DNA of 63,573 nt from Eledone cirrhosa (taxonomy: Eukaryota), in assembly GCA_964016885.1 (NCBI GenBank), contig CAXHJY010000902.1:1-63573 (forward strand). Direction: 5' to 3'. The translations under genes were made by a program, and so were the position numbers. Below, piece after piece: positions 7,821-63,044 of this stretch. Position 1 is the first letter of the stretch. Each line of letters starts with the position of its first letter. The notes beneath the pieces were generated by a model that was given only the letters and a program-made list of their open reading frames with translations, made no database searches and had not been told where the DNA came from.

Positions 7821-8586
7821 TTCTATTCTATTCTAGGGCGAGTAAAATTCCCGAGATGCATGGACGAGTTCTCTTCAGCGGTCTCTGTCCCTCATTATCG
7901 CTGCCATGTCCTGCGTCTCCAACAGACCAGTGTCTGTCCTTAGGGCATCAACATACGTTAACCTTGGTATTCCTCTTCCAGTGTGTCTATGTAGGGGCTC
8001 CCACAGGAGCACTGAGTGCAATGTCAACTCTGGATGTCGGTGAGCATGTCCAGCTAACCTCAGTTTCCTCTGTGTCTCTTTTGAGCTGACTTTTGGGAGG
8101 CTCGAATACAGCTCTGAGTTTTTCATCCTCAGTGTATACTGATTAATGTTCAGAGCCATCCTCAGCATTCTCGTGTAGCACCCATCCACCATCTGAGTGA
8201 GTGTATTGGTCAGTGTCCAAGTCACAGACTCCATTACACCAATGAAGAGGCGGATTTTCAGGTCTTTACGAAGGTCCGACTTCCACACCGATCTCAAACT
8301 GTGGCACGCCGCCCAGGCTTTGCTCTTCCTCTCAACCACATCATCTTCCGTATTCCCCATCTTTTCTCCCAAATACAGGAAGTCCTCAACCAATTCTAGC
8401 GCCTTCCCGCCTACATTAGTGATCCCCTCTGGCTTCTCAACATTCTCTACCAGATATTTTGTTTTAGTATTATTAATTCTCAGCCCCACCCTCATCGACA
8501 CAGTCTCAACCTCCTGCATCAAATCCTCTGCCTCCTTCACTGTATTTGTCCCCAAAACTATGTCGTCAGCAATTTCAGCATCCACT

Positions 8587-8590
<4 letters not shown>
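7821..8590 (-). pseudogene. 5'-truncated RTE-type LINE fragment (reverse transcriptase C-terminal half and 3' end)
   Basis: ORF 7875..8681 has ADDIVL (YADD-equivalent), GLRINNTKTKY, VEDFLYLG, KLRLAGH and GRGIPRLTYVDAL, typical of RTE-clade RT/thumb regions; (TAGAA)n tail at 7821-7835; the ORF N-terminus is just (TA)n; apparent small in-frame deletion near MES-VTWTL. Confidence 0.85.
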
Positions 8591-8645
<55 letters not shown>

Positions 8646-9607
8646 CTTGTCTCCATCCAGTACCCATTTCGGTCTACGCACTATTCTTTCGTTCTGCCTC
8701 TAACATCGACACCACCACCACCAACACCAACACCACCACCACCATCACCACCAACACCAACACCACCACCACCAACAACAACAACACCAACACCACCACC
8801 ATCACCACAACAACCAACACCACCACCACTACCACCAACACCACCACCAACACCACCACTACCAACACCAACACCACCAACAACACCGCCACCAACAAGA
8901 CCTCCTCCAATAACACTAACACCGACACCAACACCAACACACCAACAACACCACCACCACCATCACCACCACCACCACCAACACCACCAACACCACCACC
9001 AACACCACCACCAACACCACCACCAACACCACCACAACCAACAAGACCTCCTCCAATAACACCAACACCAAACACCACCAACACACCACCACCACCAACA
9101 ACAACAACAACACCACCACCACCACCACCACCACCACCACCAACACTCCTCACTTATTGACGTAAAGTTCAGATTACATAAACTCACCAAATTCACTTCT
9201 TTTTCTGCTACTTTTGTTAAGATCACTTAAATATTGATTGTTTTAATTTCTACACTAAATTAGAAATTATAACACAGACACGTGTCTCACCAACACTCTT
9301 ATGACTTGTATTCCTTTCCTAATTCAATCTTAATCATTACTAATACATTAATTACCATAATTGCTTTACTACTTCAATTATTTATTAGCAATTTAGCTTT
9401 TAATTTAAGCTAATTAATAAACACATCAGTATATCATTTAATTAATCTTTCAAGTAGGAATTAGAAAATATTCAACGTATCCTTCCATACTTCCATCCTA
9501 CCATACTCTGGGCTGATCGTCTTATTATAGTTAACAAGGTAATGCATTCAATTGAGTCGCGCTACTCTTCCATGTCCATACACAATAACACTAATATATA
9601 TGAGTAT

Positions 9608-14231: not shown

Positions 14232-14351
14232 TTGAAAAAAGGAAAAGATAATATAAAATTAAATCAAATTGTTTAGAACTACAAGTGAAGTCATTCTTTT
14301 CTTTTTATCAAATATACCTAACTGTACTAAGGATTTCACACATTTTCCAAT
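14232..14351 (+). mobile_element. (TA)n-embedded element family G, partial copy
   Basis: tacaagtgaagtcattc...atatacctaactgtac(t/c)aaggatttcacacattttccaat is shared with 21530-21606; flanked by TA repeats. Confidence 0.7.
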
Positions 14352-14352
14352 T

Positions 14353-14384
<32 letters not shown>

Positions 14385-21236: not shown

Positions 21237-21606
<370 letters not shown>

Positions 21607-21620
21607 ATATATATATATAT

Positions 21621-21804
21621 GACTATCCGGGAGCTTCCAACAGCAATGGTTGCATTCTTTAAGAGTATGTCAATATTTATTTATAAACTGATCTATATTA
21701 TATTTTATCTGATGAAAGCACACCATAATTTAACTTGGTGTCCTTGAAATATGTATAATGAAATAAATATGGTTTTATAAATATAGTTTCCATTTGTTAA
21801 TATC

Positions 21805-21805
<1 letters not shown>
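21621..21805 (+). mobile_element. About 185-bp HHR-carrying element family D
   Basis: Flanked by (TA)n on both sides; homologous to 62681-62845 (-). Confidence 0.8.
21701..21765 (+). ncRNA. Minimal type I hammerhead ribozyme (family D)
   Basis: Stem I UAUUUUAU/AUGAAAUA; CUGAUGA 21709-21715; stem II AAGcACACCA...UGGUGUcCUU; GAAA 21746-21749; minimal stem III U-augu-A; predicted AUA cleavage after 21757. Confidence 0.75.
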
Positions 21806-21844
<39 letters not shown>

Positions 21845-21880: not shown

Positions 21881-22006
21881 TAGAAATGGCTTCTACAGGA
21901 CTAGAACTGTTTAATTCGGGAGAAATCATCTGGAATTCCTTTTTATACTCTGCTATGCATTGAGTACCGTACTTACTGCGGTTACCCCATTGAACCCGGG
22001 ATAAAC
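21881..22006. mobile_element. Diverged fold-back copy of HHR element family A
   Basis: The minus arm carries a degenerate core (CAGAUGA...UAAACAG...CUGUA); the plus arm carries the family A 3' end (actctgctatgcattgagtac...aacccgggataa); in (TA)n. Confidence 0.7.
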
Positions 22007-35963: not shown

Positions 35964-36104
35964 TGAGATTCTACAGGACTAGAACTGTTTCATTCATTAG
36001 AAATCATAGTCCTGTAGAATCTCATCTATATTAAAACTGTTATACTCTGCTATGTATTGAGTACCTTACTTACTGTGGTTACCTCCGATTCAACCCGGAA
36101 TAAC

Positions 36105-36778: not shown

Positions 36779-36964
36779 GTTATTCCGGGTTGAATCGGAG
36801 GTAACCACAGTAAGTAAGGTACTCAATACATAGCAGAGTATAACAGTTTTAATATAGATGAGATTCTACAGGACTAGAACTGTTTCATTCATTAGAAATC
36901 ATCAGGATGATTTCTAATGAATGAAACAGTTCTAGTCCTGTAGAATCTCATCTATATTAAAACT
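36778..36964 (-). mobile_element. HHR element family A with an about 120-bp fold-back centred at about 36904
   Basis: Minus-strand CUGAUGA (36905-36899)...GAAACAG...CUGUA; the stem I 5' strand is replaced by the inversion. Confidence 0.8.
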
Positions 36965-38330: not shown

Positions 38331-38630
38331 TATAAAACAAAAAATCAGTGATGCATCTAGACTTAGTTTATTGTGTGTCGGCAGATAGCTCGAGACACGA
38401 TCATTGTATGGATCTGTATGATTCTAGAACTGCGGGTTCTTCGGACACATGCAATTCTTTCGGAGCAAATTTTCTCACTGAGTGAGAAAGCATTGCATGT
38501 GTCCGAAGAACCCGCAGTTCTAGAATCAGACAGATCCACACAATGATCGTGTCTTGAGCTGTCCGCCGGCGAAACAATTGTAACACACAATAAACTGAGT
38601 CTAGATGCATCACTGATTTTTCGTTTTATA
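38331..38630. mobile_element. About 300-bp fold-back element family E with a degenerate HHR
   Basis: Arms of about 120-140 bp are inverted; the right arm has GUGU-CU--UGA-GCU...GGC-GAAAC-aauu-GUA-ACAC (38549-38586). Confidence 0.75.
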
Positions 38631-38709
38631 ATATATCACACTCTGCTCTGTAAGAAAATAGAGTGCTCAACTGGCATACCGCCTATGGAAGTACCATAGC
38701 TACCATTAA

Positions 38710-41250: not shown

Positions 41251-41400
41251 AACAAGTAAGACCCAGAATTAGCCGTCGAAACGGCTTGAGCTCAGCCGTC
41301 GGGGTCTTACTTGTTCCTATTACCCACTCTACTACCCTAAGTATTGAGTACTTTGGTGCGTTATGGTCCACCTGGTTCCTTACCACATTTCCTTCGTTAT
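41248..41400 (+). mobile_element. Element family B with a short 5' inversion
   Basis: GAAA 41278-41281, stem III CGGCU/AGCCG with GAGCUC in the loop, GUC 41298-41300; upstream aggaacaagtaagaccc is the inverse of the post-cleavage sequence. Confidence 0.8.
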
Positions 41401-44033: not shown

Positions 44034-44121
44034 GTTATTCCGGGTTGAGTCGGCAGATTCCTGATGATTTCTAAAGAATGAAACAGTTCTAGTCCTGTAG
44101 AATCTCATCTATATTAAAACT
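44033..44121 (+). mobile_element. HHR element family A: inverted 3' terminus fused to an intact ribozyme
   Basis: 44033-44053 is the reverse complement of the family 3' end; flanked by (TA)n on both sides. Confidence 0.8.
44055..44105 (+). ncRNA. Type I hammerhead ribozyme (family A)
   Basis: Stem I AGAUUC/GAAUCU; CUGAUGA 44061-44067; stem II U-UUC-uaaa-GAA-U; GAAA 44080-44083; stem III ACAG/CUGU with loop UUCUAGUC; predicted GUA cleavage after 44099. Confidence 0.75.
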
Positions 44122-44136
44122 TATATATATATATAT

Positions 44137-46326: not shown

Positions 46327-46819
46327 AGAGAGAGTGGGGGAGGAGAATGCATGTGAGAATGACACAATCGTGGGAGGCATAGCGTTTGAGGTAATGGCGT
46401 AAGCGTAGACGCATGCGTGCGAGCAGGAGTGGGAACGAGGCGAAAGAATCAGAATGCAAGCATAACTGGCAAGTTTCTAATCAAGCTATTTAACAAAATT
46501 GATTGATCTATTGAAAATACATAAGCTATTGGACAGGGATAAAAACTATAGGATAAATTGTACTTTGAAATGACAATGTCTGCCCTCTGCGTTTCTGCCT
46601 CTTTCGCATCATCAGGCGTTATTTTTTATTTGTTCTTTAATTACTTATTGTTATTTTCTTGTTTGTTTCGTTCTTTCTTATCTATCTCGTATATTTATCT
46701 GCCATTTTGTTCTCTATGTTCCATGTTGTTTGTTTGTTTGTTATCTCCTCATTCCCTGTCACCCCTAATCTGATGGTGAAGACCCTAAATATAATACAAT
46801 ATGTATTATGTACGTATAG

Positions 46820-59368: not shown

Positions 59369-59557
59369 ACGAAGGATTTGTGGTAAGGAACCAGACGGAC
59401 CATAACGCACCAAAGTACTCAATACTTAGGATAGTAGAGTGGGTAATAGGAACAAGTATGACCCCGACGGCAGAGCACAAGACGTTTCGATGGCCATTTC
59501 TAGTCCAGAAATAGCCGTCGAAACGGCTTGAGCTCTGCTGTCGGGGTCATACTTGTT

Positions 59558-62649: not shown

Positions 62650-62680
62650 TATATATATAATACATATATATATATACAAT

Positions 62681-62845
62681 ATATTAACAAATGGAAACTA
62701 TATTTATAAAACCATATTTATTTTATTATATATATTTCAAGGGCCACCAGAGCTTCATCAGATAAAATATAATATAGGTTAGTTTTATAAATAAATATTG
62801 ACATACCCTTAAAAAATGCAACCATTCTGGCTGGAATCTCGTGGA
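62681..62845 (-). mobile_element. HHR element family D, second copy
   Basis: Reverse complement homologous to 21626-21803; in (TA)n. Confidence 0.8.
62719..62769 (-). ncRNA. Minimal type I hammerhead ribozyme (family D; shortened stem II)
   Basis: Perfect 8-bp stem I UAUUUUAU/AUAAAAUA, CUGAUGA (62761-62755), GAAAU-auau-AUA; stem II is weak. Confidence 0.6.
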
Positions 62846-63044
62846 TATATATATATATATATATGTTCCTCCAGTCTAAACCATCTGCTCTATCTCGTGC
62901 TTGTTATTAAGTAAGTAAATATTTATTATATATATATTTCAGATCATATTGTCACCAGAAACGTTACACCTCCATCGTCACCATAGCCAGCACATACTAC
63001 ATCATCATCAACACTACCGCCATTAGAGTAACGTCACCACTACC

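What the first reader, a model, noticed from the sequence alone, without database searches (positions are those of the whole stretch)
21701..21765. Family D: AU-rich intact hammerhead conserved between two diverged copies
The copies at 21701 (+) and 62719 (-) differ strongly in stem II length. Both keep CUGAUGA, GAAAU, the AUA triplet and an 8-bp stem I (one has G-U in place of A-U). Stem III is 2 bp with an AUAU/AUGU loop, the kind proposed to work as dimers in PLE hammerheads. The element is about 185 bp, in the size range of non-LTR retrozyme monomers.
Basis: partly seen in the sequence, partly recalled or inferred. Interest (0 to 1): 0.7.

Follow-up and report, generated by a model that had tools for sequence, protein, structure and literature searches.

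The report
Penelope retrotransposon end with start hairpins
The hammerhead ribozyme motif is really there, but it is the cut-short end of a very common protein-coding Penelope-like jumping gene and not a tiny element of its own; full-length copies carry a twice-repeated bulged hairpin just beyond the two places where genomic copies stop, which likely tells the copying enzyme where to start.

Summary
The type I hammerhead at 21701-21765 is real, with 16,719 exact-core matches in the genome. It is not a 185-bp retrozyme. It is the 5'-truncated 3' end (pseudo-LTR) of a 3.7-4.3-kb Hydra-clade Penelope-like element with an RT + GIY-YIG ORF, inserted in (TA)n. Stem II covaries across subfamilies. 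The second copy's short stem II is a private 15-nt deletion that breaks the stem, so it is no evidence of selection. Copies end at two fixed sites, about 49 and 140 nt past the cut site. Each site lies a few nt before a bulged hairpin, RCUCY..R-UH-GAGY-RCU, which both window copies lack. The hairpin follows 40 of 51 hammerheads of distant Hydra relatives (shuffles 1.9) and covaries. It likely positions reverse-transcription start and would explain the Penelope 'tail'. My paper searches did not find it. This scan noted it twice before on other pieces of this genome. Cleavage and hairpin function are untested.

The parts
21622..21806 (+). 5'-truncated 3' end (pseudo-LTR) of a Hydra-clade Penelope-like element; stops at the first of two fixed ends (junction 21805-21808, ambiguous within TAT shared with the target), so it lacks both hairpins
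   Evidence: 178 of 182 aligned nt identical to the 3' pLTR of ORF-bearing copy L116 and 182 of 185 to the 5' pLTR of L109; flanks of genome copies; end classes
21701..21765 (+). Type I hammerhead motif: stem I 21701-21708 with 21758-21765; CUGAUGA 21709-21715; stem II 21716-21745 (3 bp, C-C mismatch, 6 bp, 10-nt loop); GAA 21746-21748; 2-bp stem III 21749-21756 with AUGU loop; predicted cut after A21757
   Evidence: covariation; cleavage untested
21678..21783 (+). Predicted AU-rich extension of stem I (about 21693-21699 with 21766-21772, and about 21678-21687 with 21773-21783)
   Evidence: predicted fold only
21605..21619 (.). (TA)n target, 5' side
21807..21840 (.). (TA)n target, 3' side; no target duplication can be read inside the repeat
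62676..62848 (-). Second 5'-truncated 3' end, another subfamily, in (TA)n; also stops at the first fixed end
62719..62769 (-). Decayed hammerhead: core and stem I intact, 15-nt private deletion removes most of the 5' arm of stem II

Best explanation
Both window copies are 5'-truncated 3' ends of a Hydra-clade Penelope-like retrotransposon inserted in (TA)n, and they stop where they do likely because a bulged RNA hairpin lying just downstream in the source transcript positions the reverse transcriptase there. Shown: the source unit is 3.7-4.3 kb and reads hammerhead - end 1 (+49 nt) - hairpin 1 (+55) - end 2 (about +140) - hairpin 2 (+147) - ATG (+187) - RT/GIY-YIG ORF - 3' UTR - hammerhead. 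It occurs as partial and full tandems. Genomic 3' ends fall at two sites, each a few nt before a hairpin, in UA-rich sequence that matches the target. Inferred: the ORF protein binds RCUCY..R-UH-GAGY-RCU on a tandem (or re-circularised) transcript. The GIY-YIG domain nicks (TA)n, the nicked end pairs with the UAUA-like stretch just 5' of the hairpin, and cDNA runs 5'-ward through the uncut hammerhead without copying the hairpin in use. Use of hairpin 1 gives the short end (both window copies); use of hairpin 2 gives the roughly 90-nt 'tail' that carries hairpin 1. Early stopping gives the 185-nt pieces, and a template switch gives the head-to-head inverted partner. The hammerhead likely cuts weakly, as a dimer or with protein help, to trim tandem transcripts; it need not cut for insertion. 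Confidence in the element's identity is about 0.95, and in the hairpin's role about 0.6.
For: ORF with RT and GIY-YIG motifs upstream of a sense-strand hammerhead (L065). The hammerhead repeat lies in direct orientation on both sides of the ORF in 7 of 20 loci fetched for long frames. Unit lengths are 3951-4297 nt in five loci, and L281 is a 3715-nt tandem with hairpins at each junction. Hydra diagnostics are present, and the C-terminus scores 0.95 to GIY-YIG clusters. Ends among 85 flank-anchored copies: 45 short then (TA)n-like, 36 tail then (TA)n-like, 3 tail other, 1 other. By exact-match walk 38 of 47 short copies part from read-through sequence 2-6 nt before hairpin 1 and 22 of 34 tail copies 3-7 nt before hairpin 2; 2 read through and 2 had no anchor. 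Genome-wide, 15,372 sites match an end-plus-hairpin-1 pattern but only 495 match a both-hairpins pattern (the patterns differ, so the ratio is rough). In 77 metagenome loci (32-39% protein identity) 56 have a sense hammerhead, and 40 of 51 distinct ones have the motif within 110 nt (shuffle mean 1.9, max 6). The pair beyond the bulge, which the descriptor did not use, is C-G 39, U-A 22, U-G 5, C-A 1, other 3 of 70. It pairs only in the 2-nt-bulge register (66 of 70, against 2, 3 and 10 in other registers). TATA/ATAT lies 2-11 nt before 42 of 76 hairpins, against 11 and 3 in the two windows further upstream. In 11 of 16 metagenome comparisons the terminated copy parts -1 to 5 nt from a motif; one of the 11 is doubtful. 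PMC11167929 shows two internal RT start sites that define the tail, a need for RNA 3' of them, and no need for hammerhead cleavage in vitro.
Against: There is no biochemical test, and all positional evidence is correlative. Covariation counts treat related sequences as independent; the tool warns that relatedness alone can beat its shuffles. Three of the five hairpin pairs never vary, so sequence recognition could explain them. Nine of 47 short and 12 of 34 tail copies fall outside the narrow range in the exact walk, where a private substitution also stops the walk. Eleven of 51 metagenome hammerheads had no motif in range, and 5 of 16 end comparisons did not fit. In the sister family L100 the second site has GAUC in place of GAGC, yet a copy ends there. 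By eye I saw no canonical hairpin in the 5' part of the published Hydra-1_Obim consensus, and I did not see its 3' end. Pfam gave no RT or GIY-YIG family, the PDB profile hit to an RT is weak (E 0.024), and no tree against other PLE clades was built. [quoted passage not shown]
Confidence: 0.65

Rival explanations
1. The 185-bp piece is a non-LTR retrozyme monomer that is excised by two hammerheads, circularised and re-inserted.
For: It has a type I hammerhead with a weak palindromic stem III, its size is within the 150-450 bp range of PMC7229834, and most flank-anchored copies are short: only 6 of 30 aligned for 250 nt or more upstream of the anchor. A 2026 preprint derives retrozymes from pLTRs.
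Against: No short tandem array was seen: 2 of 30 loci had a direct neighbour within 450 nt, against 11 of 30 with a head-to-head inversion. The 5' ends vary while the 3' ends are fixed, and the sequence is 97-98% identical to the ends of ORF-bearing copies. The tandem period is 3.7-4.3 kb.
Confidence: 0.03
2. The hairpin is read by the GIY-YIG endonuclease in single-stranded DNA or in a DNA intermediate and sets a cut that resolves a longer cDNA, so the two ends are cut sites and not RT start sites.
For: PMC8557442 ascribes the tail to endonuclease-mediated resolution. PMC11167929 cites that the D. virilis tail was needed for endonuclease recognition. The central CUC/GAG pairs are invariant.
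Against: Wobble asymmetry favours the sense strand folding as RNA, though weakly (U-G 5 against C-A 1). A loop that varies from a few to about 20 nt and a 2-nt bulge suit a folded single strand more than a duplex site. In the one PLE tested in vitro, the tail ends were RT start sites.
Confidence: 0.17
3. The ends are set only by short UA-rich pairing between the nicked (TA)n and the RNA; the hairpins do another job (RNP assembly, translation of the ORF 40 nt downstream, or promoter function) and their closeness to the ends is secondary.
For: TATA/ATAT is enriched just before the hairpins (42 of 76), and junctions are ambiguous within 3-6 shared nt. Hairpin 2 lies close to the start codon.
Against: The region is AU-rich throughout and holds other UAUA runs, yet 81 of 85 copies fall in the two end classes followed by (TA)n-like sequence. 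The hairpin is duplicated with the same end relation at both copies, in family D and in distant families.
Confidence: 0.12
4. On the hammerhead's role (not exclusive of the best explanation): it cuts tandem transcripts into roughly 4-kb monomers that are ligated to circles, and the circle is the template that yields more-than-unit insertions.
For: The model was proposed in PMC4209133. Copies with a whole ORF, 3' hammerhead and tail need hairpin 2 downstream of the 3' UTR (L104, L107, L108, L112, L116), which a circle would supply. Stem II pairing is kept across subfamilies.
Against: Genomic tandems supply the same order without a circle (L281). Hammerhead-dead mutants inserted normally in vitro in PMC11167929. 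Helix III here is weaker than in five other Hydra hammerheads (self-duplex -2.2 and -3.2 against -4.8 to -8.2 kcal/mol).
Confidence: 0.25

Closest known systems
Hydra-clade Penelope-like elements, including Hydra-1_Obim of Octopus bimaculoides (PMC8557442; introduction, section 11, passages and supplement parts seen)
   Same: Single ORF with RT then C-terminal GIY-YIG; RW[KR], DKT, divergent RT4, CxCX5C linker, CxxC and CxH, no CCHH; (TA)n targets; sense type I hammerhead near the 3' end; inverted 5'-truncated copies and tail.
   Different: Different family: hammerhead stems differ from the listed Hydra-1_oBim motif; unit 3.7-4.3 kb against 'generally <3 kb'; tail about 90 nt against 30-40; helix III is 2 bp and all A-U; at least 16,700 hammerhead-bearing ends. 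The duplicated hairpin is not mentioned in the main text (0 hits for hairpin, stem-loop, bulge), although the Hydra-2_Amil consensus in the supplement contains it.
Poseidon element PAc of Anolis, internal RT initiation (PMC11167929; parts 1-2 of 4 read)
   Same: Two internal RT start sites that define the tail, downstream of a hammerhead; needs RNA 3' of the start; AT-rich target; hammerhead protein-assisted and dispensable in vitro.
   Different: There the starts lie inside the ORF in an AC-rich stem-loop and are not homologous to the target. Here the ends lie in the 5' UTR, each just before a copy of one conserved hairpin and in UA-rich sequence that matches the target.
Minimal and palindromic-helix-III PLE hammerheads (PMC4209133; parts 1-2 of 4 read)
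   Same: Type I, long helix II, small palindromic helix III, mostly single truncated copies, inverted pairs 100-700 bp apart, low activity expected.
   Different: Very AU-rich, 8-bp stem I with a predicted long extension, and a conserved C-C mismatch in stem II.
Non-LTR retrozymes (PMC7229834, passages; bioRxiv 10.64898/2026.07.22.740005, parts 1-3 of 5)
   Same: Type I hammerhead, low GC, similar apparent size, PLE ancestry.
   Different: Not in short tandem arrays; continuous with a protein-coding element; variable 5' ends.
3' stem-loops that LINE RTs recognise (e.g. eel UnaL2, PMC1636434, search listing and abstract start only) and telomerase template-adjacent elements (recalled)
   Same: A small conserved stem-loop with an internal loop or bulge is inferred to recruit the RT next to a short primer-pairing stretch.
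   Different: The hairpin here lies 3' of the start, so it is not copied, and it is duplicated. No sequence or structure homology was tested.

Membership tests
Type I hammerhead ribozyme | CUGANGA, GAAA and NUH core with three helices | tested here: met
   Copy 1; 71 of 85 flank-anchored copies pass the full descriptor. Copy 2 has lost most of stem II.
Type I hammerhead ribozyme | Compensatory changes in the helices | tested here: met
   Three stem II pairs change on both sides in 16, 18 and 21 of 50 rows; 95.7% of cells paired against 37-49% for slid registers. Rows are related; stem III does not vary.
Type I hammerhead ribozyme | Self-cleavage at the predicted site, as monomer or dimer | not testable with these tools
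   Needs in vitro assay.
Hydra-clade PLE | Single ORF, RT followed by C-terminal GIY-YIG | tested here: met
   742-aa open frame L103 with MGS, YRDD and VNFLDV motifs; C-terminus 0.95 to GIY-YIG clusters; weak RT hit in PDB; no Pfam hit.
Hydra-clade PLE | RWK motif, DKG changed to DKT, divergent RT4 | tested here: met
   RWR (RWK in most homologues), SDKTNN, MGSSDSAQVTDLVG; Hydra-1_Obim has the same layout.
Hydra-clade PLE | CxCX5C linker; CxxC and CxH around the E and N; no CCHH cysteine pair between GIY and YIG | tested here: met
   CNCRNKSNC, CDLC, CRH; one cysteine between VVY and YVG.
Hydra-clade PLE | (TA)n insertion, sense hammerhead near the 3' end, pLTR, inverted copy and tail | tested here: met
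Hydra-clade PLE | Generally shorter than 3 kb (a tendency in the paper, not a strict criterion) | tested here: not met
   3.7-4.3 kb because of a long 3' UTR; the ORF length is ordinary.
Hydra-clade PLE | RT phylogeny groups with Hydra, apart from Neptune, Nematis and Poseidon | not tested
   No reference sequences of the other clades were held as session sequences; assignment rests on motifs.
Non-LTR retrozyme | Head-to-tail tandem repeats of 150-450 bp with a hammerhead in each unit | tested here: not met
   2 of 30 and 1 of 29 loci with a direct neighbour within 450 nt, none an array; sampled, not genome-wide.
Non-LTR retrozyme | No coding capacity; independent of an ORF | tested here: not met
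   Continuous with the RT-EN ORF in longer copies.
Non-LTR retrozyme | Abundant small circular RNA | not testable with these tools
   Needs RNA of the host.

The most novel reading that the evidence does not exclude
Hydra-clade Penelope elements carry a clade-wide RNA signal that I did not find in print: a duplicated bulged hairpin (RCUCY..R-UH-GAGY-RCU) that anchors the telomerase-related RT and places a short UAUA primer-pairing stretch in its active site. One transcript thus has two programmed start sites. This would explain the Penelope 'tail', give a telomerase-like anchor-plus-alignment layout in a mobile element, and make the start of reverse transcription movable by moving a 20-30-nt hairpin.
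Probability: 0.55. Interest if true: 0.72.

Novelty: new member of a known kind. Interest (0 to 1): 0.5.

Why it matters
The hammerhead itself is ordinary: Hydra-clade elements are known to carry one, and one family was described from an octopus. What matters is what lies just beyond the end of the flagged copy. How Penelope-like elements choose where to begin reverse transcription, and why insertions often carry a one-sided 'tail', is an open question with one in vitro study on another clade. A short, covarying, duplicated hairpin that sits at both ends across dozens of distant families gives a direct experiment: delete, move or swap it. If it works as inferred it would define the RNA handle of a telomerase-related RT and explain why most short copies, which lack it, cannot be re-mobilised. 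In practice, tens of thousands of such ends in this genome should be annotated as truncated PLEs and not as retrozymes.

Tried and rejected
Rfam gave no help. The window scan returned 430 matches at E<=1; the 150 shown were microsatellite-driven miRNA-type hits below gathering score and included no hammerhead family, and 280 were not shown. Four metagenome loci gave 0 hits and the L103 5' region gave one sub-threshold mir-101 hit. Pfam found no RT or endonuclease family in the PLE ORFs. I first read the ORF as Neptune-like and as antisense to the hammerhead; some searches showed that those were inverted 5' copies and that the motifs are Hydra. My first protein search used a sister family by mistake and was redone with the right one. 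Sequencing runs: no RNA holder listed; the four runs laid were contigs and say nothing on expression or cut sites. The structure prediction had not finished at the last collection, so no fold search was run. A local-alignment end mapping overran into (TA)n and was discarded in favour of an exact walk. Lunse et al. on dimeric PLE hammerheads is not held; I saw it only as cited in PMC6765202 (passages), and it might describe sequence 3' of the hammerhead. Searches for the hairpin in print: 'Penelope + GAGCAC + hammerhead' 0 papers; five terms on tail, initiation and stem-loop, 7 papers, of which only PMC11167929 is on a PLE by title; 'Penelope, pseudo-LTR, hairpin, bulge, Hydra' 0 papers. Subscription papers, Repbase and Dfam entries, the figures and supplement of PMC11167929, and bioRxiv supplements were not seen and may bear on novelty. 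Rows dropped: one search used the window copy plus 49 of the 83 distinct intact-core rows, hand-picked to drop near-duplicates and junction-broken rows; one search used 52 of the 70 hairpins, dropping mis-anchored and near-duplicate ones; one search used 25 of the 120 listed homologues. The 85 flank-anchored copies come from the first 27 Mb of contig C1 and include both halves of inverted pairs. PMC13282606 (passages) and PMC3846280 (passages) added only background.

Full report
Observation. The motif is present as described. At 21701-21765 (+) there is an 8-bp stem I with one U-G pair, CUGAUGA, a stem II of 3 + 6 bp around a C-C mismatch, GAA, a 2-bp stem III with an AUGU loop and an AUA triplet with the predicted cut after 21757. 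The copy at 62769-62719 (-) has the same core. The core pattern is enriched in the window (7 against 0.64 expected). The family is large: 16,719 exact-core matches and 22,915 matches to a flank-only pattern, both with reversed controls of 0. Rfam showed no hammerhead among the 150 of 430 hits it listed.

The second copy is decayed, not a short variant. Against its nearest subfamily copy (L157) it lacks 15 nt of the 5' arm of stem II. This form occurs once in the 3.0-Gb assembly. Its proximal stem II pairs have probability 0.0 and the hammerhead fold costs 10.1 kcal/mol, against 4.5 for copy 1. Evidence of selection comes from the family instead. In 85 copies chosen by flanks alone, 71 pass the full descriptor. 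Mean consensus frequency is 0.98 for the 12 core positions, 0.66 for N7, 0.74 for loop II and 0.74-0.82 for the stem II arms; the six bases 3' of stem I are as conserved as the core (0.98). In 50 hand-picked distinct rows, three stem II pairs change on both sides in 16, 18 and 21 rows, and 95.7% of cells pair against 37-49% in slid registers. These rows are related subfamilies, so the number of independent events is small.

What the element is. Genome copies share the 3' end but run on upstream. In L065 an ORF with RT motifs and a C-terminal nuclease lies 1.4 kb upstream of a sense hammerhead. Of 20 loci fetched for long open frames, 7 have the hammerhead repeat in direct orientation on both sides of the ORF, often with an extra inverted copy. 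The hammerhead-to-hammerhead unit is 3951-4297 nt in five loci, with the ATG 186-188 nt after the cut, and L281 is a 3715-nt tandem of whole units. The window copy matches the 3' end of L116 at 178 of 182 aligned nt. The 742-aa protein has 322 relatives among the scored candidates. It shows the features that PMC8557442 section 11 gives for the Hydra clade: RW[KR], DKT, divergent RT4, CxCX5C, CxxC and CxH, no CCHH, and (TA)n targets. Its C-terminus scores 0.95 to GIY-YIG clusters. Pfam gave nothing, PDB gave a weak RT hit, the fold prediction did not return, and no tree was built, so the clade rests on motifs. A Hydra family with a hammerhead is already listed for Octopus bimaculoides; its hammerhead stems differ from these.

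Not a retrozyme. Non-LTR retrozymes are tandem repeats of 150-450 bp (PMC7229834 passages; preprint). Among 30 flank-anchored loci, 2 have a same-strand neighbour within 450 nt, 11 a head-to-head inverted partner and 1 a tail-to-tail partner; among 29 near-identical copies the counts are 1, 12 and 1. That is the known PLE pattern of 5' truncation and inversion. I sampled loci and did not scan the genome for arrays. Arrays of other hammerhead repeats do exist here.

Two ends and a duplicated hairpin. Of 85 copies, 45 stop about 49 nt after the cut and 36 carry a roughly 90-nt tail, both followed by (TA)n-like sequence; 4 are otherwise. The tail is the start of the element's 5' UTR. In read-through copies each end is followed by a similar motif, at +55 and +147 in L103. 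By exact walk, 38 of 47 short copies part 2-6 nt before hairpin 1 and 22 of 34 tail copies 3-7 nt before hairpin 2; the rest stop earlier, as a private substitution would cause, 2 read through and 2 had no anchor. Genome-wide, 15,372 sites have the end plus hairpin 1 and 495 have both hairpins, some of them from other families. Both window copies stop at the first end and so lack the hairpin.

The hairpin is clade-wide. In 77 metagenome loci with 32-39% protein identity, 56 have a sense hammerhead. Of 51 distinct hammerheads with enough sequence, 40 have RCTC-N5-24-GAGYR within 110 nt, against 1.9 in shuffles (max 6 of 200 rounds); 11 do not, several because the copy ends first. It usually occurs twice, at about +33 to +56 and +95 to +135. 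Among 70 distinct hairpins the fifth pair, unused in the descriptor, is C-G 39, U-A 22, U-G 5, C-A 1 and other 3. It pairs in 66 of 70 with a 2-nt bulge but in 2, 3 and 10 with bulges of 0, 1 and 3 nt; the sixth pair holds in 49 of 70 against 31.5 shuffled. On 52 of the 70, 99.2% of cells pair, the outer pair shows G-C, U-A and A-U, and the three central pairs never vary. TATA or ATAT lies 2-11 nt before 42 of 76 hairpins, against 11 and 3 further upstream. In 11 of 16 comparisons of terminated and read-through metagenome copies the parting point is -1 to 5 nt from a motif; one is doubtful and 5 did not fit. A second family in the window obeys the same rule, and the published Hydra-2_Amil consensus contains the motif. 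Against: the sister family's second site is degenerate, and I saw no canonical hairpin in the 5' part of Hydra-1_Obim.

Mechanism. Shown: anatomy, ends, covariation and target. Taken from PMC11167929: in a Poseidon PLE, RT starts at two internal sites that define the tail, needs RNA 3' of them, and does not need hammerhead cleavage. Inferred: the Hydra protein binds the hairpin on a tandem or circular transcript, nicks (TA)n, pairs the nick with the UA-rich stretch just 5' of the hairpin and copies 5'-ward through the uncut hammerhead. Hairpin 1 gives the short end and hairpin 2 the tail. Copies like those in the window would be dead ends, as they lack the hairpin. The hammerhead likely trims tandem transcripts weakly, as a dimer or with protein: monomer stem III probability is 0.0 and its self-duplex is weaker than five other Hydra helices III, in line with PMC4209133. 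A circle is possible but not needed, since genomic tandems give the same order. The rivals are an endonuclease signal, microhomology alone, and the retrozyme reading.

Novelty. The element is a new family of a known clade, and its hammerhead is expected. I did not find the hairpin in print, but one key paper was not held and repeat databases were not seen. I reached this reading, before the look-up. One search then showed that this scan had noted the same hairpin on two other pieces of this genome (unreviewed notes, not independent support). What this report contributes is the test across metagenome families, the doubled layout matched to both ends, and the counts. Interest 0.5: the flagged feature is ordinary, but it leads to a testable handle on an open question.

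Noticed in passing
window 36818-36905 (-), 44061-44130 (+), 21890-21990, 36044-36065 (+): A second hammerhead family follows the same rule: the copy at 36.9 kb has a tail with ACUCU..A-UU-GAGU-ACC, and the copy at 44.06 kb stops about 5 nt before where that hairpin would start. Several copies are fold-backs.
   Followed up: partly
window 38640-38667 (+), 41326-41352 (+), 59414-59440 (-): Three more hairpin instances in other repeat families, each followed 50-60 nt later by a microsatellite; likely tails of further Hydra families.
   Followed up: no
L117 (G000:C1:367037500-367047400) and L107 (G000:C4:70699900-70709800): True retrozyme-like tandem arrays of other sequences lie beside family D copies: seven hammerhead-core units at a 310-bp period and five at about 484 bp.
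   Followed up: no
L098-L101: Sister Hydra family (38% identity to the family D protein) with many 714-aa open frames, its own hammerhead with a G-C-rich helix III, a perfect hairpin 1 and a degenerate second hairpin.
   Followed up: partly
window 46592-46615 (-): Another hammerhead-like core (CUGAUGA..GAAAC) in a different repeat, not traced.
   Followed up: no
window 7875-8699 (-): Fragment of an RTE-like non-LTR ORF (thumb-type motifs, label recalled), interrupted by (TA)n.
   Followed up: no
window 38418-38529: Near-perfect 112-nt inverted repeat, probably a head-to-head PLE junction.
   Followed up: no
window 14308-14365 and 21563-21620: Copy 1 sits in the (TA)n end of another repeat that has a 95% identical copy at 14.3 kb.
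   Followed up: no
P0002: The best named homologue of the ORF is an Argonauta hians protein (39% identity); with the microsatellite load this fits an octopod host (inference only).
   Followed up: no
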